NCBI GenBank assembly: GCA_965202665.1
Contig: OZ241841.1
Span: forward strand, 1,824,001-1,888,000
Length of the DNA: 64,000 nt
DNA from: Candidatus Spongiisociaceae bacterium
GTDB lineage: Bacteria; Actinomycetota; Acidimicrobiia; Spongiisociales; Spongiisociaceae
Direction of reading: 5' to 3'
How positions within the stretch are numbered: position 1 is the first letter of the stretch; the number at the start of each line of letters is the position of its first letter. The notes under the pieces are model-generated. The model saw only the letters and a program-made list of their open reading frames with translations. It was not told the DNA's origin and made no database searches. The position numbers and the translations under genes were made by a program. Below are positions 42,439 through 57,978 of the stretch, piece after piece.

Positions 42439-43098
42439 TCAGGTTCGGGTTTCATATCGGTCGGGGTCGTCTGTTGCTTCTGCGGGGTTGACAACGGTGG
42501 GAACGGGCCAGGGCTGGTCGTTGACTCCGTCATCTCGGATTGTGATGGTGTCGGGCAGGTCGGGGTCGAAGCGTACTATCTGGTCTTCTCGGCGGTCGTA
42601 GGCGTAGCCGTCGGGCAGTTGGTCGGTGATGAGCCTGATGGCCTCTTGATGTAGGGGGTAGAATACGCTGTCGTAGAGGCCGTTTTCTGCGTCTTGCCAT
42701 ATTTGCGCTACTCGGCGGAGGTGCGCCTTCCAGTATTTGCACTCGGGAGCGGGCGCGGGTTCGGTTTTGGTCTCAAATCGGTCGGGGTCGGCTTCGGCCT
42801 CTGCGGGGTGGAGGACGGTGGGGGCGGGGATGGGCAGGTCGTTGCCCGCTTCGCCTTTGATGATGAAGGTGTCGGGCAGGTCGGGGTCGAAGCGCACGAT
42901 CCGGCTTTCGTCGTAGTCGAAGGCATAACCATCGGGGAGTTGGTCGGTGATGAGTCGGATGCCCGCTTCGCGTTGGGGGCCGAGCACGTCGTCGTAGAGG
43001 CCGTCGTCGACATCCTGCGACATCTGCGTCATCCGCCGGATGCGCTCCTCCCAGCAGGCTTCCTCGGAGACGGGCCCCGGGTTAGGTTCGGGTTTCAC
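42439..43098 (-). CDS. Two-module repeat protein (paralog 2)
   Basis: Two copies of W...GLYD...IRLITDQLPDGY.YD....IVRFDPDLPDT...DPDR. Confidence 0.75.
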   Translation of the reverse strand: MKPEPNPGPVSEEACWEERIRRMTQMSQDVDDGLYDDVLGPQREAGIRLITDQLPDGYAFDYDESRIVRFDPDLPDTFIIKGEAGNDLPIPAPTVLHPAEAEADPDRFETKTEPAPAPECKYWKAHLRRVAQIWQDAENGLYDSVFYPLHQEAIRLITDQLPDGYAYDRREDQIVRFDPDLPDTITIRDDGVNDQPWPVPTVVNPAEATDDPDRYETRT

Positions 43099-43183: not shown

Positions 43184-43861
43184 TCAGGTTCGGATTGCAT
43201 ATCGGTCGGGGTCGGCTTCGGCTTCTGTCGGGTGGACTATGTCGGGAACTGGCTCGGGCTGGTCAGTTATTCCATTATATCTGATTGTGATGGTGTCGGG
43301 CAGGTTGGGGTCGAGGCGCACGATCCGGCTTTCGTGGTGGTCGTAGGCGTAGCCGTCGGGCAGTTGGTCAGTGATGAGTCTGATGGCCTCTTCCGATAGG
43401 GGGTCGATTAGGTTGTCGTAGAGGCCGTTTTCTGCGTCTTTCCATATTTGCGCTACTCGGCGGAGGTGCGCCTTCCAGTATTTGCACTCTGGGGCGGGCG
43501 CGGGTTCGGTTTTGGTCTCATATCGGTCGGGGTCGGCTTCGGCCTCTGCGGGGTGGAGGACGGTGGGGGCGGGGACGGGCAGGTCGTTGCCCGCTTCGCC
43601 TTTGATGATGAAGGTGTCGGGCAGGTCGGGGTCGAAGCGCACGATTTGGCATTCGTCGTAGTCGTAGGCGTAGCCATTGGGCAGTTGGTCGGTGATGAGC
43701 CTGGTGGTCGCTTCGCGGAGGGGGCCGAGCACGTCGTCGTAGAGGCCGTCGTCGACATCCTGCGACATCTGCGTCATCCGCTGGATGCGCTTTTCCCAGT
43801 AGGCGGCCAGGTCGGCTTCCTCTTTCAACATTTTGGTGGTCATGATGCTATACTCTACCAC
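43184..43861 (-). CDS. Two-module repeat protein (paralog 1)
   Basis: Same A-B module pair; start overlaps the toxin-like gene. Confidence 0.75.
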   Translation of the reverse strand: MVEYSIMTTKMLKEEADLAAYWEKRIQRMTQMSQDVDDGLYDDVLGPLREATTRLITDQLPNGYAYDYDECQIVRFDPDLPDTFIIKGEAGNDLPVPAPTVLHPAEAEADPDRYETKTEPAPAPECKYWKAHLRRVAQIWKDAENGLYDNLIDPLSEEAIRLITDQLPDGYAYDHHESRIVRLDPNLPDTITIRYNGITDQPEPVPDIVHPTEAEADPDRYAIRT

Positions 43862-44172
43862 AGGTTCCGTCTTCTTGATGACCTACGACTTTTTCGTTGT
43901 TGGCGTGCCTTGTCGATGTGGAATACAACTTTCTGCCCGCCTGGCCTGTACTCATATCCTACCTCAATGTGATCAAGTCGTTCTATGGCGAATCCCTCCA
44001 TCCACAAGGCCCGCTTCCCGGCGGTTCGCTTGCCGGATTTCTGAAAGGGGCCTACGTAAGGCCGGTCGAATACTGCTTCGGCGTCGGCTGGACCGTATCC
44101 GTGCTTGAAAGCCGACGGCAGGTACCAGACGCCGTTTTCTTCTACGATCCCAGGGGGTGCCTGATCCGTCAT
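43855..44172 (-). CDS. BrnT/RelE-fold-like toxin
   Basis: SAFKHG...D, IEVGY, VVFH...R pattern of small actinobacterial TA toxins. Confidence 0.6.
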   Translation of the reverse strand: MTDQAPPGIVEENGVWYLPSAFKHGYGPADAEAVFDRPYVGPFQKSGKRTAGKRALWMEGFAIERLDHIEVGYEYRPGGQKVVFHIDKARQQRKSRRSSRRRNLW

Positions 44173-44203
44173 CGGCAATCTGTCATACTATTTAGTTTTG
44201 AGT

Positions 44204-44236
44204 TTGACATTCTTGTGACCATAGTGTTATTATAAT
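44204..44236 (+). promoter_or_regulatory. Promoter of the R-M operon, near-leaderless
   Basis: TTGACA-N18-TATTAT with overlapping TATAAT just before the ATG at 44242. Confidence 0.55.
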
Positions 44237-44241
44237 ACACC

Positions 44242-44853
44242 ATGATTACATTAATAACGCGCCTGTCCGAGGTGGCGGAAGTTTCGCAGGGGTTGGCCCT
44301 GTCGGGGCGGGGGGTGGGCGCGCAGGCCGGGGATTGGCGGTTGCGGATGGTGGAAAGCCGGGACGTGTCCGACGACCGGCTCCGCTTGGACGGCCTGCGG
44401 GAGGTTGGTGTGGTGCGGAGCGTGCGCACCGAACGGCATCTGCTCCGTCCGTTCGATGTGCTGGTCACCGCTCGGGCCGGGCGGCCGGAGGCGGCCCTGG
44501 TGCCCCCCCGGGTGTCCCGCACCGTGGCGGGGATTACGCTGTTGGCGGTGCGTCCTCGCCATCCGGAGTCGGGGATGGGGCAGTACCTGTGGTTCTATCT
44601 GACATCCGCCGACGGGCGAGCGCAGCTGGCTCGCAAAACCCGCCCCGGTATCACGTTCACGTCCCTGTCGGCCCGCGACTTGGGGGAGATGGTGGTTCCG
44701 ACTCCGCCTCCCCGCATCCTGGACAGGGTGGCCCGCCTGGTCGGGTCGTCGGAGCGGGCCTACGCGGCGGCGACGGAGGCGGCCCGTCTGCGACGGACGA
44801 CCCTGCGGGACGCCCTGGTCCGCCGAATATGTCACACGGCCCTGCCAAACTAG
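44242..44853 (+). CDS. Single-TRD HsdS-like protein
   Basis: RLSEVAEV.QG, LRPFDVLV..R.G, YL.FYLTS, L...VP.PP plus coiled coil. Confidence 0.75.
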   Translation: MITLITRLSEVAEVSQGLALSGRGVGAQAGDWRLRMVESRDVSDDRLRLDGLREVGVVRSVRTERHLLRPFDVLVTARAGRPEAALVPPRVSRTVAGITLLAVRPRHPESGMGQYLWFYLTSADGRAQLARKTRPGITFTSLSARDLGEMVVPTPPPRILDRVARLVGSSERAYAAATEAARLRRTTLRDALVRRICHTALPN

Positions 44854-44869: not shown

Positions 44870-46399
44870 ATGCCATTAACTCAACAAGAACTGGAGTCGA
44901 AACTCTGGCAGGCGGCGGACATCCTGCGCGGCCAGATCGACGCCGCCGATTACAAGAACTACATCTTCTCCATCCTGTTCCTGAAAAGACTGTCGGACCG
45001 CTTCGAGGAGGAGGTGGAGGCGGCGGTAGCGCAGGGCGTGCCCCGGGAGGCCGCCCTGTACGATACGGATGAACACGAATTCTTCGTCCCCGATGAGGTC
45101 CGCTGGGCGGCCTTGGCCGGGGCGTCGATGAACCTGGGGGAGAAGTTGAATGTGGCCGGCCATGAGATTGAGTACGAGAACACGCCCCGTCTGGACGGGG
45201 TGCTGACGTCGGTGAACTGGAATGACGAGTCCAAGCTGGGCTCCCCGGCCAACCGGGAGAAGATCATCCGCAACCTGCTCAACCATTTCAGCGATCTGGA
45301 TCTGTCGGACCGCAACCTGGCCCCGGACGGCGGGGGCGGGGCGGGCAACGTGCTGGGCGACGCCTACGAATATCTGATTCACCGGTTCGCCGACGATGCG
45401 GGCAAGAAGGGCGGCGAGTTTTACACCCCCCGGGCGGTGGTGCGCCTGATAGTGGAATTACTGCGCCCGCAGGAGGGGATGCGCATCTGCGATCCGACGG
45501 CCGGTTCGGCCGGAATGCTGATTTACACCGCCCAATATGTGAAAGAGCAGGGGGGCGACCCGCGCAACCTGGTGTTGCACGGCCAGGAACGCAACCTGGG
45601 GACGCTGGCCATCGGCCGCCTGAACCTGCTCCTGCATGATCTGCGCGCGGCCCGTTTGGAGGGAGGGGATGTGATCGCCGAGCCGCAACTGCTGGACGAC
45701 AAGGGATGGTTGATGCTCTACGACCGGGTAATAGCCAATCCCCCATTCAGTCTAAAAAACTGGGGTTTCGAGTCCGCCCCCGACGATCCCCACTCCCGCT
45801 TCAACCGCTACGGGGCCATACCGCCCCGCGCTAAAGGAGATTTGGCCTTCGTGTTGCACATGCTGGCGGTAACAAATCACACAGGGATGCTGGGGGTGGT
45901 GTTGCCGCACGGGGTGCTGTTCCGAGGTGGGGCGGAAGGCAAAATACGCAAAGGGATGGTGAAGGAGGATCGTTTTGAGGCGGTAATCGGTTTGACGCCC
46001 AACCTGTTCTTCGGGGCCGCCATCCCGGTTGCCATCTGTGTATTCAACAAACAGAAACCTCCGGAACGGAAAGGAAAGGTGCTTTTCATAGACGCCGACC
46101 AGGAGGGCTACTTCCGCCAAGGCAAAGCCCAGAACCATTTAGATGGTGAGCACATCCAGAAGATAGCCGAGGCCTACCACAATTTTGAGGAGGTGGAACG
46201 GTTCGCCCACATAGCCGATTTGGAGGAAATAGAGGAAAACGACTACAATCTTAACATCAGCCGCTACGTAGACAAAACGGAACCGATAGAAATCATAAGC
46301 GTAGAAGAGGCCTTGGCCCAGCTGAGAGAAGCTGAGCAACGGAGAGACGAAGCAGTAGCCAAAATGAACGAACACCTGAAAGAGTTAAGATATGTCTAG
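44870..46399 (+). CDS. hsdM: Type I R-M methyltransferase subunit
   Basis: LWQAADILRG, GEFYTP, DPTAGSAGML, ANPPF, PHGVLFRG, YNLNISRY. Confidence 0.96.
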   Translation: MPLTQQELESKLWQAADILRGQIDAADYKNYIFSILFLKRLSDRFEEEVEAAVAQGVPREAALYDTDEHEFFVPDEVRWAALAGASMNLGEKLNVAGHEIEYENTPRLDGVLTSVNWNDESKLGSPANREKIIRNLLNHFSDLDLSDRNLAPDGGGGAGNVLGDAYEYLIHRFADDAGKKGGEFYTPRAVVRLIVELLRPQEGMRICDPTAGSAGMLIYTAQYVKEQGGDPRNLVLHGQERNLGTLAIGRLNLLLHDLRAARLEGGDVIAEPQLLDDKGWLMLYDRVIANPPFSLKNWGFESAPDDPHSRFNRYGAIPPRAKGDLAFVLHMLAVTNHTGMLGVVLPHGVLFRGGAEGKIRKGMVKEDRFEAVIGLTPNLFFGAAIPVAICVFNKQKPPERKGKVLFIDADQEGYFRQGKAQNHLDGEHIQKIAEAYHNFEEVERFAHIADLEEIEENDYNLNISRYVDKTEPIEIISVEEALAQLREAEQRRDEAVAKMNEHLKELRYV

Positions 46400-47588
46400 T
46401 TTCGTCTCCCCCCCCCCCATTGGAAGATAGTTAAATTGGGTGATGTAGCCAATGTCGAATTCAGCAGTGTTGACAAAAAGGCGGTGGATGATGAAATTCC
46501 GGTGGTGCTTTGCAATTATCATGATGTGGTGAGCAATTATCGTATTCGGTCCGGTATAGATTTTATGCCTGCAACTGCTACAGCCAAGGAAGTTGACAAA
46601 TGGACGCTACAGCAAAATGACGTTGTCTTCACCAAGGATGCTGAGATAGGAAAGGTTTCCTTGGTGGAAGAGAACATACCAAATCTGGTGTGCGGCTATC
46701 ACCTAGGACGTGCTCGACCTAAACAAGATATAGTTTTTGGGCCGTTTTTGGCGGAAGCTCTCAAAACTCCCGTTACGCAAAAACAAATTACACGTTTACA
46801 AACAGGTCTTACTATCTCTGGGATCCGTCTAGGAGATATGCGATCTGTACAATTACTGTTACCTCCATTTGAAGAGCAAAAACATATAGCATCTGTTTTA
46901 GGTAGTGTTGACGAAGCGATAGAAAAAATGGAAAATGTAATAGTCAAAACAGTGCAACTACGCGATGCGCTACTACACGAACTGTTAAGCCGAGGAGTCC
47001 CCGGACACCACAAAGAAGGGGTAGAAGTACCCGGCGAGGCGTGGCCCCCCCCCCCCATGGAAGGTAGTCATCTTGGGTGATATAGCCGAAGTCCAAAAAG
47101 GCACTAGCTTTACTAGCAAGGATTTGGTGCTCGGAGACATTCCTGTAATTGCAGGAGGCCGCGAACCGGCCTATTATCATAAGTATTCTAACCGGCCACC
47201 TAATACGATCACGGTGAGCGCATCGGGTGATGCTGGCTACGTTTCTATTCATCGTAAGCCCATTTTCGCTTCAGATTGCATAACAGTCCGTCCTAAACCG
47301 GAAATATCGGTGACCAACTATATTTATTATTTTTTGAAACATAATCAGAACAAGATATACCGTCTCAGAACTGGTTCGGCGTTGCCACATGTATATCGGA
47401 AGGATATTGCCAGATTCATAGTAATACTTCCTCCGTTAGAGGAGCAGATATCCATTGCAAGATATTTAGACAGTGTGTCTGAGGTTATAGACCATAATAG
47501 ACAAGTAATGAACAGACAGAGTAGACTACGAGATGCACTACTACACGACCTTTTAACCCGAGGTCTTCCGAATAATCACAATGATTGA
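46392..47588 (+). CDS. hsdS: Type I R-M specificity subunit, frameshifted at two poly-C tracts (phase-variable or assembly error)
   Basis: ATG at 46392; C11 at 46408-46418 before WKIVKLGDV; C12 at 47045-47056 before WKVVILGDI; two LPP.EEQ..IA conserved regions. Confidence 0.85.
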
Positions 47589-47607
47589 TTTAGCAGGGAG
47601 GTAATGT

Positions 47608-50600
47608 ATGGATATTGAATTAGCGCAGGTGGAGCAACCGGCGCGGGAGTTGCTGGAGCGGTTGGGGTGGTCTTACCTTTCTCGTTCCGAACTTTCGCGG
47701 GAGAGGGGGGATGAGCGGGAGGTATTACTCAAGGGGCGGTTGCGTTCTGCTTTGCTTCGGCTTAATGAGTGGATGGACTCGGAGCAGGCGGACCGGGTAA
47801 TTTACGCTTTGGAACACCTGGAAGAATCTGGGATGGGGCGTAATAGGCGGGTGCACGAGTATCTTACCTATGGGATGCCTTTGGATGTGGACCAGCCGGG
47901 CGGGCGGCGTGCCCGTACTGTCCGGTTTTGTGACTTTGAGTATCCGGAGGGTGGGCGCAACGAATTCGTCGTCACCACCCAGTTCCGGGTTTCACGCGGG
48001 GAGAATGTTGTTCCTGATTTGGTGTTGTTCGTCAACGGCATTCCCCTGGTGGTGATGGAAGCCAAACGGCCCGACTTGTTGTGGCGGCGGGAGGAGGCTG
48101 TTAAGCAGTTGCGCCGTTATCAGGAAGCTGACCTGAATTTTCGGGGGAGGGGAGCGCCGGAGCTGTTTCATTACAACCTGTTGTGCGTGGCTCACTCTGG
48201 GGCGGAAGCGTCCTACGCCGGACTGTACGCCCCCGAAATAGACTATTTTGAGTGGAAAAGCATCCATCCTTTCCACGAAGACGAGGTGCGTAGCCGGTTC
48301 GGGGTCGAACCTCGGGGGCAGGCTCAGCTCATTATCGGCCTTTTGTCCCCCTCCGTCCTGCTGGACATTTTGCGCGATTACGTGGTTTACGAGCATCGGG
48401 GCGGGAAACTGGTTAAAAAGCTGCCCCGTTACCAGCAGTATCGGGCGGTTCGGGAAGCTTTGGGGCGCATCCGGCGGGGCGGGAGCCCCCAGGAGCGGGG
48501 CGGGATTGTTTGGCACACCCAGGGGTCCGGCAAGTCTTTGACCATGCTGTGGCTGGCCACCAAACTGCGCCGTTCCGCCCGCCTGGGCGACTTGGACAAC
48601 CCGGCCATTCTCATCATCACCGACCGCACCCAGCTGGACCGGCAGATTACCGACACTTTCAACCGGTGCGGCTTCTCCGCCCCCGAACAGGCTAAAAGCA
48701 CCCGGGATTTGCGCCGTCTGCTCACCAGCGGGGTGGGGCGTACGGTGATGACCACCATCCAGAAATTCGAGGAAGTCCTGCAGGAAGACGACGGGCGGGC
48801 GGAGGCTCTCAACCCGGCCGCCAACGTGGTGGTGATGGTGGACGAAGCCCACCGCACCCAGTACGGAATCCTGGCCGCCCGCATGTCGCAGGCCCTGCCC
48901 AACGCCGTCCTCATCGGCTTCACCGGCACCCCCATCGACAAAGGGTTCGAACGTAGCACGCGGCGGCGGTTCGGGGAACTGATCGACTCCTACACCATCC
49001 CCCAATCGGTTGCCGACGGGGCCACCGTCCCCATCCGCTACGAGTTGCGCAAACCGGAACTGTCCGTCGTCGGCCCCGACGCTTTGGACCGGCTGTTCAA
49101 CCGGCTGTTCGGCGATCTCACCGACGATGAGCAGGCGCAGATTCGCCGCCGTTACGCCAACCGGGAAAGCTTGGCCGAAGCCGAACGGCGCATTCAAATG
49201 ATCGCCGAAGACATCGCCGGCCATTTCATCGACCACATCCGGCCCAACCGGTTCCGGGGGCAGGTGGTGGCCCCCAGCCGGGCGGCCGCCCTCCAATACG
49301 CCCGGCATCTGCGGGACTTCGGAATACCCGAAACCTATCCGATCATCACCGTCACCCCCGGCGATGGGGCCGAATATAACCAGGTGCGGGATCTGAACCA
49401 GGAACAGTTGGTGAAAGCCTTCGTGGAAGACGAAGACGGGCCGGGGGTGCCCGAAATTCTGGTGGTGGTGGACAAGTTGCGCACCGGGTTCGACGCCCCC
49501 CGGGAGCAGGTTCTCTATTTGGACAAAGGAGTGCGGGAACATGATCTGCTGCAGACCATCGCCCGCGTCAACCGCCGCTTCTCCCACCATGCGGATGGGG
49601 TTTCAACTGAAAAAACCTACGGGTTGATAGTGGACTATCACGGGGTTTCCCAAGAGTTGGAGAAAGCCCTGGCCGGGTTCGAATGGGGGGAGGTCAGCGA
49701 GGCGATGGAGCCATTGGAAACCGGGGATGAAATCGGGGAGGTGATTGAAGAAGCGGCCGCCCGGGCGGAAAGATGGTTCCGGGGGAAGGATTTGGATGAC
49801 ACCTGGGAGTGCGTGTTGATGTTCGCCCCCGACGCCGAAACCGAAGGGGAATTCAAGATAGACCTTTATCAGCGGTTCAATCAGGACTACCGGCATTTCG
49901 CCTATCTGATGGACCGGTTCCTTCCCGACCCGCGGGCTTTGGCCTACCGGGACCGGTTGTCGCGGCTCACCGTCGTCCGCTCCTATGTGAGGGCGCAGTA
50001 TATGCGGGAAGACGCCGAACTGGACTGGACTGACATCGGGGCGAAAGCCAAAAAACTGGTGGACGAGCGGATAGACGCCGTCGTGAAGGAACTGATGAAA
50101 CCCATCTCCATCCTCCACCCCGACTTTGAGCGGACGATGGCCGGGTTGCCGGGGGAGCGGGTTCGGGCTTCGCTGATGGAACACGCCCTGCGGGCGGAAA
50201 TCAACCGTCGGTTCGGGGAAAATCCGGCTTTCTACCAGAAACTGTCCGAGTTGTTGAAAGAAGTGATCGGCCAGTTGCGGCAGGGCACGCTGGACGACTT
50301 GGAAGCCTGCCGTCGGATGGGGGAAATGGCCGGGCGAATGGAAGAGGAGGGGGACATCGCCGCCCGGCTGGAACTCACCCGGCGCGGATACGCCTACTAT
50401 GGGTTGTTGCTGGCGGAACCGGACGAACCCACCCGCGCCGCCGGGGACCTGGGCGAACATCAGGAAGAATTCGAGGAGGAGATGGTGAAACTGGCCGGAA
50501 GATTGGATGAAGCGGTGGAAAAACATGCGGCGATCATCGAATGGCGGGACAAGCCGGACGTGCAACGGGAAATGCGCCGGGACGTGAAGCGGATTCTGCG

Positions 50601-50697
50601 GGAAAGCGGGGAATACTCCCAGGAGCATCTGGACGAACTGAGCCGCCGCCTGGTGGAAATCGCCCGGCGGCAGGGGGACGCCGGTGCGGACGCGTGA
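47608..50697 (+). CDS. hsdR: Type I R-M restriction subunit
   Basis: PDLVLFVNGIPLVVMEAK, WHTQGSGKS, DEAHRTQYG, FTGTP, RTGFDAP, QTIARVNR. Confidence 0.96.
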   Translation: MDIELAQVEQPARELLERLGWSYLSRSELSRERGDEREVLLKGRLRSALLRLNEWMDSEQADRVIYALEHLEESGMGRNRRVHEYLTYGMPLDVDQPGGRRARTVRFCDFEYPEGGRNEFVVTTQFRVSRGENVVPDLVLFVNGIPLVVMEAKRPDLLWRREEAVKQLRRYQEADLNFRGRGAPELFHYNLLCVAHSGAEASYAGLYAPEIDYFEWKSIHPFHEDEVRSRFGVEPRGQAQLIIGLLSPSVLLDILRDYVVYEHRGGKLVKKLPRYQQYRAVREALGRIRRGGSPQERGGIVWHTQGSGKSLTMLWLATKLRRSARLGDLDNPAILIITDRTQLDRQITDTFNRCGFSAPEQAKSTRDLRRLLTSGVGRTVMTTIQKFEEVLQEDDGRAEALNPAANVVVMVDEAHRTQYGILAARMSQALPNAVLIGFTGTPIDKGFERSTRRRFGELIDSYTIPQSVADGATVPIRYELRKPELSVVGPDALDRLFNRLFGDLTDDEQAQIRRRYANRESLAEAERRIQMIAEDIAGHFIDHIRPNRFRGQVVAPSRAAALQYARHLRDFGIPETYPIITVTPGDGAEYNQVRDLNQEQLVKAFVEDEDGPGVPEILVVVDKLRTGFDAPREQVLYLDKGVREHDLLQTIARVNRRFSHHADGVSTEKTYGLIVDYHGVSQELEKALAGFEWGEVSEAMEPLETGDEIGEVIEEAAARAERWFRGKDLDDTWECVLMFAPDAETEGEFKIDLYQRFNQDYRHFAYLMDRFLPDPRALAYRDRLSRLTVVRSYVRAQYMREDAELDWTDIGAKAKKLVDERIDAVVKELMKPISILHPDFERTMAGLPGERVRASLMEHALRAEINRRFGENPAFYQKLSELLKEVIGQLRQGTLDDLEACRRMGEMAGRMEEEGDIAARLELTRRGYAYYGLLLAEPDEPTRAAGDLGEHQEEFEEEMVKLAGRLDEAVEKHAAIIEWRDKPDVQREMRRDVKRILRESGEYSQEHLDELSRRLVEIARRQGDAGADA

Positions 50698-51421
50698 CCG
50701 GGTGCGTTACGGCGGGTCGGTCATCGAATACGAGATCCGGCGCAGCCCCCGCCGCCGTAAAACTATCCAGTTGGCGGTTGACGGGGGCGGGGTGTCGGTG
50801 ACCGCCCCGATGGAAGCCGGCGACGAATATCTGAAGGCGTTCGTGCGGCAACGGGCCGACTGGATCATCCGCCGCTCCTCGGACGCTGCGGCTTTGCGGG
50901 CCGCCCCCAAGCGGTTCGTGAGCGGGGAAACCGTGCCCTACCTGGGGCGGAACATGCGGATGATCGTGTCGGAGGCGGAGGAAGGGGAGCGGTCGCCGCA
51001 GGTGCGGTTCGACCATTGGAGGCTGCGGATAGCGGTTCCCCCCGGTTGGGAGGGGGAGGAGCGGACGGAGCGGGTGCGGTCGGCGGTGACCGACTGGTTT
51101 CGGGGGCGGGCGGAAGCGCGGGTGCCGCCGGTGGTGGACCGCTGGTGGCCGCAGTTCGGGCGGGGGGAGCGGTCGGCGGTGCTGATCCGCAACCAGCGCA
51201 AACGGTGGGCCAGCTGCGGGGCGGACGGCACGTTGCGTTTCAACTGGCGGGTGGTGATGGTCCCCCCGCCGCTTCTGGAATACGTGGTGGTGCACGAGTT
51301 GGCCCACCTGGTGGTCCGCAACCATTCCGCCGACTTCTGGAACCTGGTAACCGGAGCCATCCCCGACGCCCCCGCCCGCCGTCGCCGCCTAAGGGAAACC
51401 ACCCCCCACCTCCCCTTCTAA
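50684..51421 (+). CDS. YgjP/DUF45 (M48-like) metalloprotease-fold protein coupled to hsdR
   Basis: WASC, FNWR, YVVVHELAH...NHS..FW; overlaps the hsdR end. Confidence 0.9.
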   Translation: MRTRDRVRYGGSVIEYEIRRSPRRRKTIQLAVDGGGVSVTAPMEAGDEYLKAFVRQRADWIIRRSSDAAALRAAPKRFVSGETVPYLGRNMRMIVSEAEEGERSPQVRFDHWRLRIAVPPGWEGEERTERVRSAVTDWFRGRAEARVPPVVDRWWPQFGRGERSAVLIRNQRKRWASCGADGTLRFNWRVVMVPPPLLEYVVVHELAHLVVRNHSADFWNLVTGAIPDAPARRRRLRETTPHLPF

Positions 51422-51467: not shown

Positions 51468-52679
51468 ATGAGCACCTACACAAGCTACCTTCCCAAGTTG
51501 GATAGCCGCGAGTCGTACATGGACTATCTGGAAGGCTATTTGACGCTGGAAACTTTTGGGCAACCCGAGGCGGGGCGAAGCCCTCTTAAAACGTATATGT
51601 TGGAAACCGCTCGCGGCGAGCGGAGGGAGCGTTCCTTGGCGGAATCCTTTTCTAACGGTATACGTCTGGATGCTATCGACGAAGCGTTGTACGAAGTCTG
51701 GGATAATGAGAACCATCCAGGCGAAATAGTTGGGCTAATTGAGGTTGCAGAAGAGCGCCATCCTGTGTTCTATACTGCTTTTAAATCCGATGAAAGCAAT
51801 AATTGGATAAGTAAAAATGTGGATCAAACCCCTTGGCTTGACAGAATGTGGCTATCTTCGCACATTTTATCCCATATATGGAATCATACACGGAAAGTAT
51901 CTGATCCTGCACGCTATGTTGGATTTGGCTTCGAGCACGAATCTAAATACGAAATGTTAAGTGATGCATCACAATATGAAGATATGGAGATAGGTGAAGG
52001 ATATGAATCACCAGCACCAGATCGTCGAAAAGCAAGGGTATATATCACTGAAAGGCTTGATGTTTTGTCTGACAAATTAGAAAAATTTACTAAATTGTAT
52101 GATCCCTTGCATTCTTTAGTGCAGCTACAAATACCCTCCGATAGTAAAGGAGGTCATCGCTTACATTACGATGGTAGGGCCATAAATCTTAGCGACTCTT
52201 TTTTGGAACATCGTTCTAAAATTATGAGTATAGTGAAGTTGTATAAGAATCTAACAGAAACGGCAGAGGACAAACTGTGGCTAGGCACTACTGATGTTGA
52301 TGGCGGTGGTTTTAGGATGGATGGTGAGCCTATAACAATTCAATTTGAACAAGAACTGTCAGAAGAAACATTCAATAAATTTATAACCTATGGATTACAA
52401 CGCAGGAATAGCATTTTGAGAATAGGTGGTTATCTTCATAATCGCGGGCCGAGGAAAATTCATATGTCTGCTATCGACAGACATTTATGGCAACCTTTTC
52501 TCCTCGAAGCAACAACAAAACATATTATGGTTTTATTACCGCGAGGTACGTGTGGTAACACTATTCACCGTCTTGTTACATATGTGCAACGTTTCATATC
52601 GCCCAAAATAAGCGTGTGGTTGGGAGGCGAATCATATAAAGATGCAGTTGGTTTAGCTAGTAAAGGAAACAGAAAATGA
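51468..52679 (+). CDS. AT-rich hypothetical protein (candidate defence gene A)
   Basis: 403-aa ORF; C-terminal LPRGTCGNTIHRL; no family recognised. Confidence 0.8.
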   Translation: MSTYTSYLPKLDSRESYMDYLEGYLTLETFGQPEAGRSPLKTYMLETARGERRERSLAESFSNGIRLDAIDEALYEVWDNENHPGEIVGLIEVAEERHPVFYTAFKSDESNNWISKNVDQTPWLDRMWLSSHILSHIWNHTRKVSDPARYVGFGFEHESKYEMLSDASQYEDMEIGEGYESPAPDRRKARVYITERLDVLSDKLEKFTKLYDPLHSLVQLQIPSDSKGGHRLHYDGRAINLSDSFLEHRSKIMSIVKLYKNLTETAEDKLWLGTTDVDGGGFRMDGEPITIQFEQELSEETFNKFITYGLQRRNSILRIGGYLHNRGPRKIHMSAIDRHLWQPFLLEATTKHIMVLLPRGTCGNTIHRLVTYVQRFISPKISVWLGGESYKDAVGLASKGNRK

Positions 52680-53773
52680 GCGATTCTATTCAGTTGATTG
52701 ATGATCCTGCTCAATTGCTTAGTGATCCTGTTTTTCAACTAAATATGGTTATTTGGTCTGTGAAAGATTTACCTAAAGATGGTAACTCACAGATAAACCC
52801 ATTTCTTAAGGAGGCAGGTTATTATATCGTTGCCCTTAACCGGAGAATTCTACTAACGGAGATTGGTGATAGGAGTTCTTTTTTTGAATTAGTACCAGAT
52901 TGGAGTCCTCCTGTTCCAGATGTATGGTTGAGGCATGAAAGTGATAATTTTGATCTAATATTAGAATTAAAGTCGCGTGGTTTTGGAGAAAAATCTTCAA
53001 AAAAAATAAAGCAAATTTATAAAATGTTGGCTGCGTCGTTCGACCTGTCCTCTTCTATTGGTATCAAAGATAGGAAACCTGGATTTTTTATTATTATGAC
53101 TTTACATAAAGATGCCGACAAAATGACAGACACTCTAAATTTGTTGAAGTCGACATTAGAGGAAGTGCAGATTTCGTCCGCGCCTGTAGCTGTTATAGGT
53201 CTTGATCATAGTCAAAATAATTGGCTGTGGAATAGTCTTAATCCTTCCACTTTACCTAAACCTTTATGCAAGGGTTTATCCCAACCTGTTACTGTACTGA
53301 GATCCATGGGACATATAGAAGATATCATTCCAATGTACTTTATACCTTGGCTTCCAGAAGTTGATGACGAATCTTCACCCCTTATTTCAGATGGTTTGGC
53401 TGTATTGACTGGGCGCGTGTTATCTTATGTTCAAAAGGAAATAAAAAATGCCGAACCTCCTGTCATGCTATCATTGAGAGCAGATTCTCTGCTCCAAGAA
53501 GCCACTTATGGTGTATTTAACCATTGGAAAGGTAAGGATAGAAAAAATTTTACAAAAAAGGTAATAAATATTATATCAAAAAATATTAATGCCATTAGTA
53601 TTTCCTATAAGAGCGATAAGGAAGTAGGTATTGAAATTAAAACAGAATCTATCCGTGAAGATATTTTGAAAGAATTGGAACGCGTTGAAATTAATAGCTT
53701 TGATAAGAACCTTGAGGGTGCTAGCTCGTCTGTACAGCCACATTTATTTGGTAGCATGGAATGGGAGGGATAG
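52676..53773 (+). CDS. AT-rich protein with PD-(D/E)xK-like motif (candidate defence gene B)
   Basis: ATGA overlap; PDVWL...LELKS...KQ. Confidence 0.75.
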   Translation: MSDSIQLIDDPAQLLSDPVFQLNMVIWSVKDLPKDGNSQINPFLKEAGYYIVALNRRILLTEIGDRSSFFELVPDWSPPVPDVWLRHESDNFDLILELKSRGFGEKSSKKIKQIYKMLAASFDLSSSIGIKDRKPGFFIIMTLHKDADKMTDTLNLLKSTLEEVQISSAPVAVIGLDHSQNNWLWNSLNPSTLPKPLCKGLSQPVTVLRSMGHIEDIIPMYFIPWLPEVDDESSPLISDGLAVLTGRVLSYVQKEIKNAEPPVMLSLRADSLLQEATYGVFNHWKGKDRKNFTKKVINIISKNINAISISYKSDKEVGIEIKTESIREDILKELERVEINSFDKNLEGASSSVQPHLFGSMEWEG

Positions 53774-53825
53774 TGGAGTGGATGATTTCTGCTAGTTGGG
53801 TTAGTTGGCAAGGAGGCGAAGCGAT

Positions 53826-54119
53826 ATGACAACTTCAGCAACTAGGTCGGAGGTGCGGACTATTACGGCCTCTGAGTTCCGAGCCAAGTGTTTGGCCTTG
53901 ATAGATGAGGTGGCGGAGACCGGTGAGGAGATACTGATCACCAAGCGGGGTAAACCGGTGGCGCGGCTGACCGCCTATTGGGAAAGGCCCAAAACTCTCT
54001 ATGGTAAATATCGAGGTCAGATCAAAATCTATGGCGACCTTGATGAGTTGGATGATGAAGGTTGGGAGGAGGAGGTCCTGAGCAAATGGGATGAACGGCT
54101 TGCCTCGCCATCCCCCTAA
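53826..54119 (+). CDS. Phd/YefM antitoxin (orphan copy)
   Basis: ASEFRAKCLALIDEV..TGEEILITKRGKPVARL; SD AAGGAGG. Confidence 0.9.
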   Translation: MTTSATRSEVRTITASEFRAKCLALIDEVAETGEEILITKRGKPVARLTAYWERPKTLYGKYRGQIKIYGDLDELDDEGWEEEVLSKWDERLASPSP

Positions 54120-54120
54120 T

Positions 54121-54149
54121 TTGACTATGGTCATGACCATGGTTATAAT
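54121..54149 (+). promoter_or_regulatory. TA promoter containing two tandem palindromic operators
   Basis: TTGACT-N17-TATAAT overlapping TGACTATGGTCA and TGACCATGGTTA. Confidence 0.75.
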
Positions 54150-54183
54150 ATAGATAGTCGGCACAGAAGCGAAAGGAAAACGA

Positions 54184-54465
54184 ATGACAACTTTAACCGC
54201 TGAGTCGCAGGTTAGGACCATCTCGGCCTCTGAGTTTAAGGCCAAGTGCTTGGGGTTGATGGACGAGGTGGCGGAGACCGGTGAGGAGATCGTGATCACC
54301 AAGCGGGGCAACCCGGTGGCGCGGTTGGTCCCGTCGCGGGAAAGGTTCAAGGCTCCGTTCGGTTTTTACAAGGATCGGATGGAAATTCTAGGAGACATCA
54401 TAAGCCCGATTGACGACATGGAATGGGAGGAGGAATGGCTCAAGCAATGGGATGAATTGATGTGA
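54184..54465 (+). CDS. Phd/YefM antitoxin
   Basis: ASEFKAKCLGLMDEV..TGEEIVITKRGNPVARL; overlaps the toxin gene. Confidence 0.92.
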   Translation: MTTLTAESQVRTISASEFKAKCLGLMDEVAETGEEIVITKRGNPVARLVPSRERFKAPFGFYKDRMEILGDIISPIDDMEWEEEWLKQWDELM

Positions 54466-54863
54466 CCCTGCTAGACACGCATGTTCTTCTTTGGTTGATG
54501 TCGGATAACCCTAGGCTGGCCCAAGATGTTCGAAAGATGATTGAACGGTCTTGGAGTGAGGGCGAGGCAGTTGCATCGGCGATATCTTTTTGGGAGATGG
54601 CGATGTCGCAACAAAAGGGGCGACTCAGAATAATGGTTGAAATTGGACAGGTCCGCGAGAATTTTTTGCGGCAGGGGCTGAAGGAGATTGCCGTGAGCGG
54701 TGAGATCGGCATTAGGGCCGTGTCGTTGCCTGATTTTCATAAAGATCCGGCTGACCGGCTGATTGTCGCCACTGCGTTGGAGGGGGACCATCGGCTGGTT
54801 ACGGCGGATGGGAAGATTCTGGCTTGGCCGGGGCCGTTGCGGCGTTTGCCCGCCGGGGTTTAG
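54462..54863 (+). CDS. vapC: PIN-domain toxin (VapC)
   Basis: LLDTHVLLW, SAISFWE, HKDPADRLIVATA, LVTAD. Confidence 0.92.
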   Translation: MTLLDTHVLLWLMSDNPRLAQDVRKMIERSWSEGEAVASAISFWEMAMSQQKGRLRIMVEIGQVRENFLRQGLKEIAVSGEIGIRAVSLPDFHKDPADRLIVATALEGDHRLVTADGKILAWPGPLRRLPAGV

Positions 54864-56588: not shown

Positions 56589-57770
56589 TCAGACGGCGTG
56601 TTCGTACACCGCCTTCTCGAAGTCCAGGTATCCGCCCACCGAAGTCGGGTCGGCGAAGGGGAAAATCTGGGTGGCCCAGAATCCCCCCACGCCGTTGCTC
56701 CGGTCAATCCAGTAGTAAAGGTTGGCCAAACCCGCCCAAGCCAGCGAACCGGCCAGGCGGCCGGTGGGGGCGTCCTCCTCGTTGATCATAAAAGTCAACG
56801 CCCAAGACTTGGGCATGCCCGGGAAAAACTCGGCGTAGTTGGAAAGGGTCGGGATAACCCCGGGGAGTCCTTTGATTTTCATATCCCCTTCCAGGCCGTT
56901 GCGCTCCGCCATCTCCACGGTTTTCCCGTCCAGCACCGGTCCCTTCGGCCCCATCCCGTCGTTCAGCCACATCCGGATGAAACGGCAATAGTCTTCGGCG
57001 GTGGAATAGAGGCCGTGGCCGGCCATATGCACCTCCGGGTCGGACGGCAGTTCGAAGCCCATCGGCTCCAACGACCCGTCATCCCCGCGCTGGTGAATGT
57101 CGGCCAGGCGGCTGCGCATCTCCCCGTTGAGGGTGAAAGAAGTGGAGTTCATTCCCAACGGTTCCAGAATCCGCTCGCTCATCACCTCCCCCAGCCTTTT
57201 GCCGGCGATCCCCTCCACCACCTGCCCCGCCCAGTCGATGTTGGAGCCGTACTCCCACTCTTCGCCCGGATCGAACAGCAACGGGGTGGTTAGGGAAGCC
57301 TTGGAGGAGGTTATCACGCTCGGCTGGCCGCGCTCCTCCGCCAGGCGGTTGTAGGTTTCATTGAAAAAGTCGTAACCGAACCCGGCGGTGTGCAGAAGCA
57401 ACATGCGGGTGGTCACATCCCGTTTCGGCGGGCGCAACATCGGGTCGCCGTTCTGATCGAACCCGTCCAGAACCTGCAAGTCGCCGATTTCGGGAGCGTA
57501 GTTTTTAGCGGGGGCGTCCAAGTCCAGCGAACCGTCCTCCACCAGTTGCAGGCAGGCCGTGCCCGCGATGGCTTTGGTGGTGGAGAAAATGGCGCACACC
57601 GTGTCGGAGGTCATAGCCTCCTCCCCGCCCAAAACCCTCGTCCCGGCCGCTCCCCGGTAAATGTCCCCTTCCCGATCGGCGGCCACCGCCGTCACGCCGG
57701 GAACCCGGGGATTTGACTCAACCACCCCCCGCAGGATCGCATCCGCCGCCGTCTGCAAACTGTCGCTCAT
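56589..57770 (-). CDS. Beta-lactamase-family serine hydrolase (esterase)
   Basis: FSTTK (SxxK), [23 protein letters not shown]. Confidence 0.9.
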
Positions 57771-57883: not shown

Positions 57884-57978
57884 TGGCGGAGGCGGACGGG
57901 AATCGAACCCGCCGGGGCACTTACGTACCCCCACTGGTTTTGAAGACCAGGGAGCCCACCAGGCGCTCGTTCGCCTCC
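57884..57978 (-). tRNA. selC: tRNA-Sec (anticodon UCA)
   Basis: 95 nt: GGAGGCGA...CTGGT-CTTCAAA-ACCAG, long variable arm, GTTCGATTC, 3' GCCA. Confidence 0.93.

What the first reader, a model, noticed from the sequence alone, without database searches (positions are those of the whole stretch)
46392..47588. hsdS with two poly-C switches, one before each target-recognition domain
Seen: ATG at 46392 then C11 gives MSSFVSPPPIGR*, whereas C12 or C9 restores ...HWKIVKLGDV. The second tract, C12 (47045-47056), truncates the protein after TRD1, whereas C11 restores ...PWKVVILGDI. Both tracts sit at equivalent positions. With the present tract length the TRD1 frame is also continuous with hsdM across its TAG. 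Known: a single mid-gene homopolymer switches specificity in Neisseria NgoAV. Inference: a multi-state phasevarion (off, TRD1 homodimer, full length), expandable with the upstream half-HsdS. Caveat: homopolymer lengths are error-prone in long-read assemblies, although the tracts themselves are real features.
Basis: partly seen in the sequence, partly recalled or inferred. Interest (0 to 1): 0.7.

Follow-up and report, generated by a model that had tools for sequence, protein, structure and literature searches.

The report
Two slippage switches in one hsdS
The DNA-targeting gene of a restriction-modification system in an uncultured, likely sponge-dwelling bacterium carries two runs of 11-12 C's whose lengths differ between public assemblies; they likely act as two slippage switches, one turning the gene off and one predicted to change the DNA sequence recognised, a new arrangement of a known trick.

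Summary
Confirmed. C11 (46408-46418) and C12 (47045-47056) each sit in a repeat just ahead of one target-recognition domain of a type I hsdS. Contigs of public runs, without substitutions around them, show tract 1 at 11 or 12 and tract 2 at 9, 11 or 12, covering all three predicted states: off, half-size, full length. Two deep runs of one sample disagree. These are contigs, not reads, so platform error is not excluded. The genome has 75 C/G runs of 11 or more (about 2 expected at most): 28 in defence/methylase genes, 23 in one promoter motif. Related alleles carry either switch alone, so the pair looks like two modules joined by domain shuffling. Read-through of the hsdM stop is rejected. The upstream ORF has a half-HsdS fold, but binding to HsdM has only weak support. 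Precedents: NgoAV (mid-gene switch), H. pylori type IIG HpyAXVI/Hpy99XIV (on/off plus specificity switch), Xylella XfaII (two poly-C in hsdS). I found no paper with a 5' plus mid-gene pair in a type I hsdS. This scan earlier noted single-tract hsdS in other genomes and this genome's poly-G promoters. Gene regulation (phasevarion) is untested.

The parts
44204..44233 (+). promoter-like site (TTGACA, 18 nt, TG-TATTAT) just ahead of the first gene
   Evidence: 11 of 12 consensus matches, best of 6 sites (2.8 expected in shuffles); function inferred
44242..44853 (+). conserved stand-alone half-HsdS-like ORF, 203 aa (one TRD-like head plus one long helix)
   Evidence: no Pfam hit; weak PADLOC Specificity_I hits, best E 2e-8; AF2 pLDDT 79, Foldseek top hits Esub1 then HsdS chains; 556 homologues
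44870..46399 (+). hsdM, 509 aa, intact, NPPF motif
   Evidence: Pfam N6_Mtase 325 bits and HsdM_N; TIGR00497 236 bits, just under its cut-off 243
46392..47588 (+). hsdS, split by two poly-C tracts; 398 aa when both are in frame
   Evidence: public full-length allele P0121
46408..46418 (+). tract 1, C11 here (out of frame); likely on/off switch
   Evidence: 11 in runs X1 and X6, 12 in X2 and X3
46403..46459 (+). repeat x, copy 1 (holds tract 1)
   Evidence: D2
46418..46933 (+). TRD1 (Methylase_S match)
46957..47016 (+). repeat y, copy 1 (end of the first conserved helix)
   Evidence: D1, 75% identical to copy 2
47040..47096 (+). repeat x, copy 2 (holds tract 2)
   Evidence: D2
47045..47056 (+). 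tract 2, C12 here (out of frame); likely full-length versus half-size switch
   Evidence: 12 in X1 and X2, 11 in X3, 9 in X5; one base shorter somewhere in 46634-47087 in X4
47055..47504 (+). TRD2 (Methylase_S match)
47525..47584 (+). repeat y, copy 2 (end of the gene)
   Evidence: D1
47608..50697 (+). hsdR, 1029 aa, intact
   Evidence: TIGR00348 484 bits, cut-off 285; HSDR_N, SWI2_SNF2
50684..51421 (+). YgjP-like metallopeptidase gene overlapping the hsdR end
   Evidence: Pfam PF01863, 176 bits

Best explanation
This is the specificity gene of a type I restriction-modification operon with a poly-C run ahead of each of its two DNA-recognition domains, and the runs likely slip during replication so that the first would turn the gene on or off and the second would choose between a full two-domain protein and a half-size protein predicted to dimerise and recognise a palindromic site. 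Shown: the anatomy, the frames, and different tract lengths in contigs of different runs. Inferred: slippage is frequent because the genome has NucS and no detectable MutS, and NucS does not repair 1-2 base indels in mycobacteria. Inferred: the half-size product keeps its whole conserved helix and works as a homodimer, as in NgoAV (about 55% likely). Inferred: each tract grew from the proline codons of the conserved Pro-x-x-Trp motif, and the two switches are separate modules brought together by recombination at the x and y repeats. The likely purpose is bet-hedging in defence against phage and mobile DNA and in gene uptake; effects on gene expression are untested.
For: Tract lengths differ with no substitution in 1901 flanking bases: X1 C11/C12 (depth 156), X2 C12/C12 (depth 87, same sample), X3 C12/C11 (depth 3.3), X5 tract 2 C9 (depth 2.1); X6 tract 1 C11, X4 one base shorter across tract 2. 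Full-length allele P0121 is in a public assembly. Genome-wide excess of 11-13 runs with a gap at 9-10; 28 of 75 in or at the edge of defence/methylase ORFs, 23 of 75 in one promoter motif. Among 16 close alleles (65% or more identical to either TRD, out of 241 proteins examined) 4 have the poly-Pro leader, 3 the poly-Pro linker, 3 a (Thr-His)n linker; the congener G001 has (AC)12 at the same mid-gene spot, an independent repeat type. With C11 the linker has the same 17-residue length as tract-free alleles. TRD1 relatives occur first (69), second (28) or in both positions (17). No MutS_V match, one NucS match (genome 94% complete). PMC11551767, PMC3936762, PMC6789123.
Against: P0121's contig has the same length as that of P0004, which has a frameshift at a short C run in the upstream ORF, so that assembly may be indel-prone. 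DNA of the other poly-Pro alleles was not seen, so their tracts are inferred from protein. Of 9 orthologous loci in the family only G001 has a repeat in hsdS, and none of 80 GTDB loci has a C/G run of 9 or more ahead of a TRD. In H. pylori JHP1422, TRD1 alone did not methylate. In N. gonorrhoeae the NgoAV poly-G states cluster by lineage, suggesting little switching. No RNA or methylation data.
Confidence: 0.68

Rival explanations
1. Both tracts slip, but both are just on/off switches: the half-size product is inactive, so the gene has two states and the second tract only raises the off rate.
For: TRD1 alone was inactive in H. pylori JHP1422; Xylella XfaII frameshifts at its poly-C tracts went with fewer methylated motifs.
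Against: The truncation falls after the whole first conserved helix, at the point equivalent to the natural end of the gene (D1); NgoAV HsdS200 and H. pylori JHP0785 half-proteins methylate palindromes; 17 natural HsdS carry this TRD family in both positions; repeats of two kinds arose at exactly this linker.
Confidence: 0.17
2. The gene is fixed in frame (C12/C11) in nature and the other lengths are homopolymer errors of sequencing or assembly.
For: Long homopolymers are error-prone (established knowledge); only contigs were seen; low-depth contigs are flagged as possibly wrong; the second hsdM of this genome has a frameshift away from any long run.
Against: The two deepest contigs (156 and 87) both have tract 2 out of frame and differ at tract 1; a 258-nt contig in X6, another study whose 151-nt records suggest short reads, also has C11; error cannot make 75 long runs concentrated in promoters and defence genes.
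Confidence: 0.08
3. The runs are neutral mutational hot spots: any C/G run reaching 9 expands to 11-13 in a repair-poor genome, and the gene is decaying.
For: The gap at 9-10 fits expansion bias; no MutS found; most orthologues lack the tracts; 24 of 75 long runs were not assigned to either class.
Against: 51 of 75 runs fall in two functional classes; hsdM, hsdR and both TRDs are otherwise intact; the leader and linker motifs recur in alleles with different TRDs; a different repeat, (AC)n, sits at the same linker in the congener.
Confidence: 0.07

Closest known systems
NgoAV hsdS of Neisseria gonorrhoeae (PMC6789123; bioRxiv 10.64898/2026.01.10.698759; passages read)
   Same: Type I hsdS with a mid-gene homopolymer giving full-length or half-size protein with different specificity; three product classes exist there too (62, 200, 400 aa).
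   Different: Its off state is a single T insertion, not a repeat tract; it has LEAT spacer repeats, absent here; poly-G rather than poly-C; here a second long tract sits at codon 6-9.
Hpy99XIV / HpyAXVI (JHP1272, HP1353-1354) of Helicobacter pylori (PMC3936762; passages read)
   Same: Two poly-C tracts in one R-M gene; the first turns it on and off, the second changes specificity; shown by experiment.
   Different: Type IIG single polypeptide; the second switch adds a small C-terminal domain, not a second TRD of an HsdS; tracts not at symmetric positions.
XfaII hsdS of Xylella fastidiosa (bioRxiv 10.1101/2022.09.01.506293; section 13 read; its supplementary figure not seen)
   Same: Two variable poly-C tracts in one type I hsdS, one per half, causing frameshifts between strains.
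   Different: Tracts are 7-9 long and lie after each TRD, at the start of the conserved regions, so they seem to inactivate; phase variation not shown.
REBASE survey of repeat-bearing hsd genes (PMC7383803; parts 2-3 of 7 and first part of one supplement read)
   Same: 7.8% of hsdS carry such repeats; mid-gene tracts give full or truncated HsdS; environmental species included.
   Different: It states that hsdS tracts always lie between TRDs and that 5' on/off tracts belong to hsdM; tract 1 here is an exception. The supplement part seen lists names only, so exceptions in its data cannot be excluded.
Domain movement (DoMo) in hsdS (PMC3077401; abstract and passages read)
   Same: x-TRD1-y-x-TRD2-y layout; the same TRD at either position; duplicated-TRD alleles.
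   Different: Here the x repeat itself holds the slippage tract.
Esub1 of Streptococcus pyogenes, PDB 8VSQ/8VSR (PMC11754733; passages read), for the upstream ORF
   Same: Natural half-HsdS fold; best structural match of the 203-aa ORF.
   Different: Esub1 lies far from hsd genes and was not shown to bind HsdM; the ORF here is the first gene of the hsd operon.

Membership tests
Type I R-M system | hsdR with nuclease and helicase domains | tested here: met
   TIGR00348 above cut-off; Pfam
Type I R-M system | hsdM with HsdM_N and N6 methylase domains | tested here: met
   TIGR00497 7 bits under its cut-off
Type I R-M system | hsdS with two TRDs, each followed by a conserved helix | tested here: met
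Type I R-M system | bipartite methylation and ATP-dependent restriction | not testable with these tools
   no methylation data available
Repeat-switched hsdS (NgoAV-like) | run of 9 or more between the TRDs, after the conserved helix | tested here: met
   C12 at 47045-47056
Repeat-switched hsdS (NgoAV-like) | tract length differs between otherwise identical copies | tested here: met
   contig consensus only, several at low depth
Repeat-switched hsdS (NgoAV-like) | reversible switching within one population | tested here: inconclusive
   two runs of each of two samples disagree (X1/X2 at tract 1, X3/X5 at tract 2), but no raw reads
Repeat-switched hsdS (NgoAV-like) | half-size protein gives a palindromic specificity | not testable with these tools
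   anatomy fits; activity unknown
Repeat-switched hsdS (NgoAV-like) | four-residue spacer repeat (LEAT/TAEL type) of type IC subunits | tested here: not met
   no such repeat in the linker of P0121; so not filed as type IC
Two-switch R-M gene (HpyAXVI/Hpy99XIV) | two homopolymers in one gene, first on/off, second altering the recognition part | tested here: met
   anatomy only
Two-switch R-M gene (HpyAXVI/Hpy99XIV) | type IIG single-chain enzyme | tested here: not met
   separate hsdM, hsdS, hsdR; works like it, is not a member
DoMo-type hsdS | direct repeats x and y flanking both TRDs | tested here: met
   57 nt at 79% and 60 nt at 75%
DoMo-type hsdS | same TRD found at both positions in related alleles | tested here: met
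   TRD1 family 69 first, 28 second, 17 both; TRD2 family 71 first, 9 second
Phasevarion | switching changes expression of other genes | not testable with these tools
   no RNA holder listed; not evidence either way
Functional half-HsdS partner (as H. pylori JHP0785), for ORF 44242-44853 | one TRD plus helix fold | tested here: met
Functional half-HsdS partner (as H. pylori JHP0785), for ORF 44242-44853 | binds HsdM | tested here: inconclusive
   weak support, 0.56 against best control 0.00; may be from likeness to solved M-S complexes

The most novel reading that the evidence does not exclude
One operon gives an uncultured sponge symbiont a dial of methylation identities: a conserved half-HsdS, shared across phyla of symbionts, supplies HsdM with a constant default specificity, while two mobile slippage modules riding on the TRD-shuffling repeats switch the variable subunit among off, half and full states and let halves pair in new combinations. 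It would be one of some 28 such switches in the genome's defence genes, a pathogen-style phase-variable defence repertoire in a marine symbiont.
Probability: 0.17. Interest if true: 0.72.

Novelty: new variant of a known kind. Interest (0 to 1): 0.46.

Why it matters
It is an exception to the published rule that hsdS repeats lie only between the TRDs, and it puts the H. pylori two-switch logic into a type I specificity gene. Related alleles carry each switch alone, which gives a rare view of how a multi-state switch is assembled. The organism appears to be a sponge symbiont with dozens of such tracts in defence genes and surface-protein promoters, a pattern mostly studied in pathogens. Long-read data with kinetics could link allele to methylation motif on single molecules without culture. 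The parts of the mechanism are all known, so the surprise is moderate.

Tried and rejected
Read-through of the hsdM TAG: rejected. 9 of 9 orthologous loci have an ATG overlapping the end of hsdM; in-frame public alleles start at that ATG; no CTA-anticodon tRNA among 52 found, and the one 'tRNA-Stop' call is a poor cloverleaf antisense to a long ORF. Expression: no RNA holder listed. Broad conservation of the tracts: not found; 0 of 80 GTDB loci have a C/G run of 9 or more ahead of a TRD (L051's C9 is at the last codons of hsdS; L117 has an A9 inside a TRD), and none of 20 metagenome loci has a repeat in hsdS, though only 8 of them reach it. Exact look-up of the two split ORFs: not in the collection. 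DNA for P0134, P0141, P0255, P0256, P0266, P0267 was not obtainable, so whether P0266 (poly-Pro linker, called from an internal start) is a second two-tract allele is open. Re-initiation at TTG 46436 or TTG 47073 (the latter overlaps the truncating stop and has GGAAGG upstream) could leak N-terminally short halves; not testable. Runs X7 and X8 hold other strains and gave no tract lengths; X8 has a TRD2-like domain right after hsdM. Papers checked without a matching case: PMC10123105 (passages), PMC9465063 (passages). The original NgoAV paper was not held and is known here only through PMC6789123. Literature searches for a 5' plus mid-gene pair in type I hsdS; for sponge symbionts: (none of the 20 listed of 76 contains the term). 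Most subscription papers are not in the library.

Full report
1. Observation. The window has C11 at 46408-46418 and C12 at 47045-47056, its only C/G runs longer than 7. They lie in an operon of a 203-aa ORF (44242-44853), hsdM (44870-46399), hsdS (46392-47588), hsdR (47608-50697) and a YgjP-like gene, behind a near-consensus promoter-like site at 44204-44233. From ATG 46392 the present sequence gives 12 residues. Varying the lengths in silico: tract 1 is in frame at 9 and 12 of 9-14; then tract 2 at 11 gives the full protein and 9, 10, 12, 13 give 223-229 aa ending shortly after the first conserved helix. Each tract sits in a 57-nt repeat (79% identical) ahead of a TRD, and a 60-nt repeat (75%) closes each half.

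2. Organism and background. The window lies in a single-contig 2.77-Mb genome with five WhiB matches, one NucS and no MutS_V match (94% complete), which points to an actinobacterium. Named runs that hold part of the locus are mostly sponge metagenomes, so sponge association is inferred. C/G run counts are 96 at length 8, 1 at 9, 0 at 10, then 24, 28 and 14 at 11-13 and 9 longer; 75 against 0.15-2.3 expected. 23 of 75 are in a TTGAC-N-G11-13-TAG promoter-like motif, mostly ahead of very long ORFs. 28 of 75 lie in or at the edge of ORFs with methylase, type ISP, Eco57I-like, DUF1156, DUF4007 or helicase matches, or in their out-of-frame continuations (my hand assignment; list). 24 are unassigned. 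26 of 29 genomes of the family have at least one C11 or G11. Mycobacterial NucS does not repair 1-2 base indels (PMC11551767, passages).

3. Do the lengths vary? Contigs of four runs from two samples and two studies were laid on 46000-47900 with no substitution listed: X1 C11/C12 (depth 156; may be the window's source), X2 from the same sample C12/C12 (87), X3 C12/C11 (3.3), X5 from X3's sample tract 2 C9 (2.1; tract 1 not bridged). Four more runs: X6 has a 258-nt record across tract 1 with no gap (C11) and a 151-nt record with no gap that ends 4 bases past tract 2 (not bridging); X4 has a record one base shorter over 46634-47087, place not listed; X7 and X8 gave no lengths. A full-length 398-aa allele is in a public assembly (P0121), which may be error-prone and may come from the same sample as X3. 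So off, half-size and full-length alleles all appear. Against: these are consensus contigs of unknown platform, five of the calls are at depth 5 or less, and no raw reads were available.

4. Related alleles. Of 241 HsdS-like proteins from two searches, 16 are 65% or more identical to one of the TRDs. Four have the poly-Pro leader (P0121, P0134, P0141, P0256); three of these have an ordinary linker. Three have the poly-Pro linker (P0121, P0266, P0267), always before this TRD2 family, with three different first domains. Three have a (Thr-His)n linker (P0143, P0272, P0275); for P0143, the congener G001, the DNA shows (AC)12 in frame. Only P0121 shows both motifs; P0266 and P0255 are called from an internal start, which fits an out-of-frame leader or a gene-caller choice. 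For all but P0143 the tracts are inferred from protein. Both TRD families occur at either position, and 17 proteins carry the TRD1 family twice; G008, G015 and G019 have two identical halves. This is the DoMo layout (PMC3077401), and suggests (inference) that the two switches are modules combined by recombination; the equal position follows from the shared Pro-x-x-Trp motif. Further out the tracts vanish: 1 of 9 orthologous loci in the family has an hsdS repeat, G009 has a frameshifting G13 in hsdM instead, and 0 of 80 GTDB loci have a C/G run ahead of a TRD. The closest of those 80 are Dehalococcoidia/SAR202 and one Aldehydirespiratoraceae genome at 71-77% HsdM identity, so the operon moves between phyla while the switches are lineage-specific.

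5. hsdM read-through. Rejected: 9 of 9 orthologous loci have an ATG overlapping the end of hsdM, public alleles start there, and no amber tRNA was found.

6. The upstream ORF. It has no Pfam match, weak PADLOC HsdS matches and 556 homologues of similar length. It is about as conserved as HsdM (82% to the congener against 83%), unlike a shuffling TRD. The model (pLDDT 79) matches Esub1 best, then HsdS chains. Esub1 is a half-HsdS homodimer that could not be shown to bind HsdM (PMC11754733); H. pylori JHP0785 is a half-HsdS that works with its HsdM. Two copies folded with HsdM scored 0.56 against a best control of 0.00, partner pLDDT 82, runs agreeing in at least 80% of contacts: weak support. 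The tool's counts are 116 of 157 solved and 2 of 215 mismatched pairs over the mark, but only 18 solved and both mismatches at 0.60 or under, and the pass may reflect known M-S structures.

7. Mechanism. Likely: slippage at tract 1 removes or restores the variable subunit, silencing restriction and methylation at its site together; slippage at tract 2 selects a full subunit (asymmetric site) or a TRD1 half with its whole helix (palindromic site if it dimerises). For: NgoAV HsdS200 and JHP0785. Against: JHP1422 TRD1 alone was inactive, and NgoAV poly-G states cluster by lineage. How cells survive a switch to a new specificity with an intact hsdR is not addressed by my calls. Confidence 0.68; rivals: two on/off switches 0.17, sequencing error 0.08, neutral decay 0.07.

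8. Comparison and novelty. Mid-gene switches are common (7.8% of hsdS carry repeats; PMC7383803), and that survey says hsdS tracts always lie between TRDs. The on/off plus specificity pair of poly-C tracts is shown for H. pylori type IIG enzymes (PMC3936762). Two poly-C tracts in one type I hsdS are described for Xylella XfaII, shorter and after the TRDs (its supplementary figure was not seen). Searches gave no type I hsdS with a 5' plus a mid-gene tract; the library lacks most subscription papers and the REBASE supplement part I read has names only. Earlier notes of this scan list single-tract hsdS in other genomes and this genome's poly-G promoters; none of the 8 listed has two tracts. Verdict: real, probably functional, a new variant of a known kind; interest 0.46.

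Noticed in passing
G000 whole genome: 75 C/G runs of 11 or more with none at 10; 23 form the spacer of a repeated TTGAC-N-G11-13-TAG promoter-like motif, many ahead of ORFs of 3.5-13 kb.
   Followed up: partly
L172 (G000:C1:1212500-1232499): Three tandem type ISP genes, each with one internal tract and 2-3 more in or behind the C-terminal specificity domain (11 tracts in all); one is fully in frame (1613-aa open frame), two break at the first 3' tract. A richer multi-switch case than the hsdS.
   Followed up: partly
L166:1555-4113 (-), L183:3136-4803 (-): Two N6_N4 methylase genes with two tracts each: near residues 10 and 99 of the open frame in one; near residue 17 and at the junction to a C-terminal frame in the other.
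   Followed up: partly
G000:C1:140296-143206: Second type I locus: hsdM has an in-frame C13 and a separate frameshift near 141030 that is not at a long run; its hsdS is intact.
   Followed up: partly
G000:C1:699889 and 464909: (GA)28 just ahead of a methylase match at 700019, and (TGTTG)12 in a weak methylase match: other repeat types also sit at methylase genes.
   Followed up: no
L126:2337, L028:5023, L037:3407, L039:5257, L040:3375, L140:498, L141:1781: Type I hsdM genes of other family members carry G10-G14 runs, and heptamer arrays lie at or near the 3' end of two more; some runs shift the frame.
   Followed up: partly
L026, L029-L032, L034: A small two-gene pair that looks like HicA/HicB (name recalled, not tested) is inserted between hsdM and hsdS and takes over the overlapping ATG.
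   Followed up: no
window 51468-52679 and 52676-53773 (+): Two ORFs (403 and 365 aa) behind the R-M operon with no Pfam, NCBIfam or PADLOC match; candidate defence genes.
   Followed up: partly
window 42439-43098, 43184-43861, 43855-44178 (-): Two tandem paralogous acidic ORFs with internal repeats and a 107-aa ORF, divergent from the R-M promoter; no Pfam match.
   Followed up: partly
window 53805-54863 (+): Two similar Phd/YefM-like ORFs followed by a PIN-like ORF (names recalled from sequence, not tested).
   Followed up: no
window 57092-57186 (+) and 57888-57976 (-): ARAGORN calls a tRNA-Gly and a tRNA-SeC.
   Followed up: no
P0134, P0255, P0256: HsdS alleles of 659-673 aa with an extra C-terminal region of about 250 residues after TRD2.
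   Followed up: no
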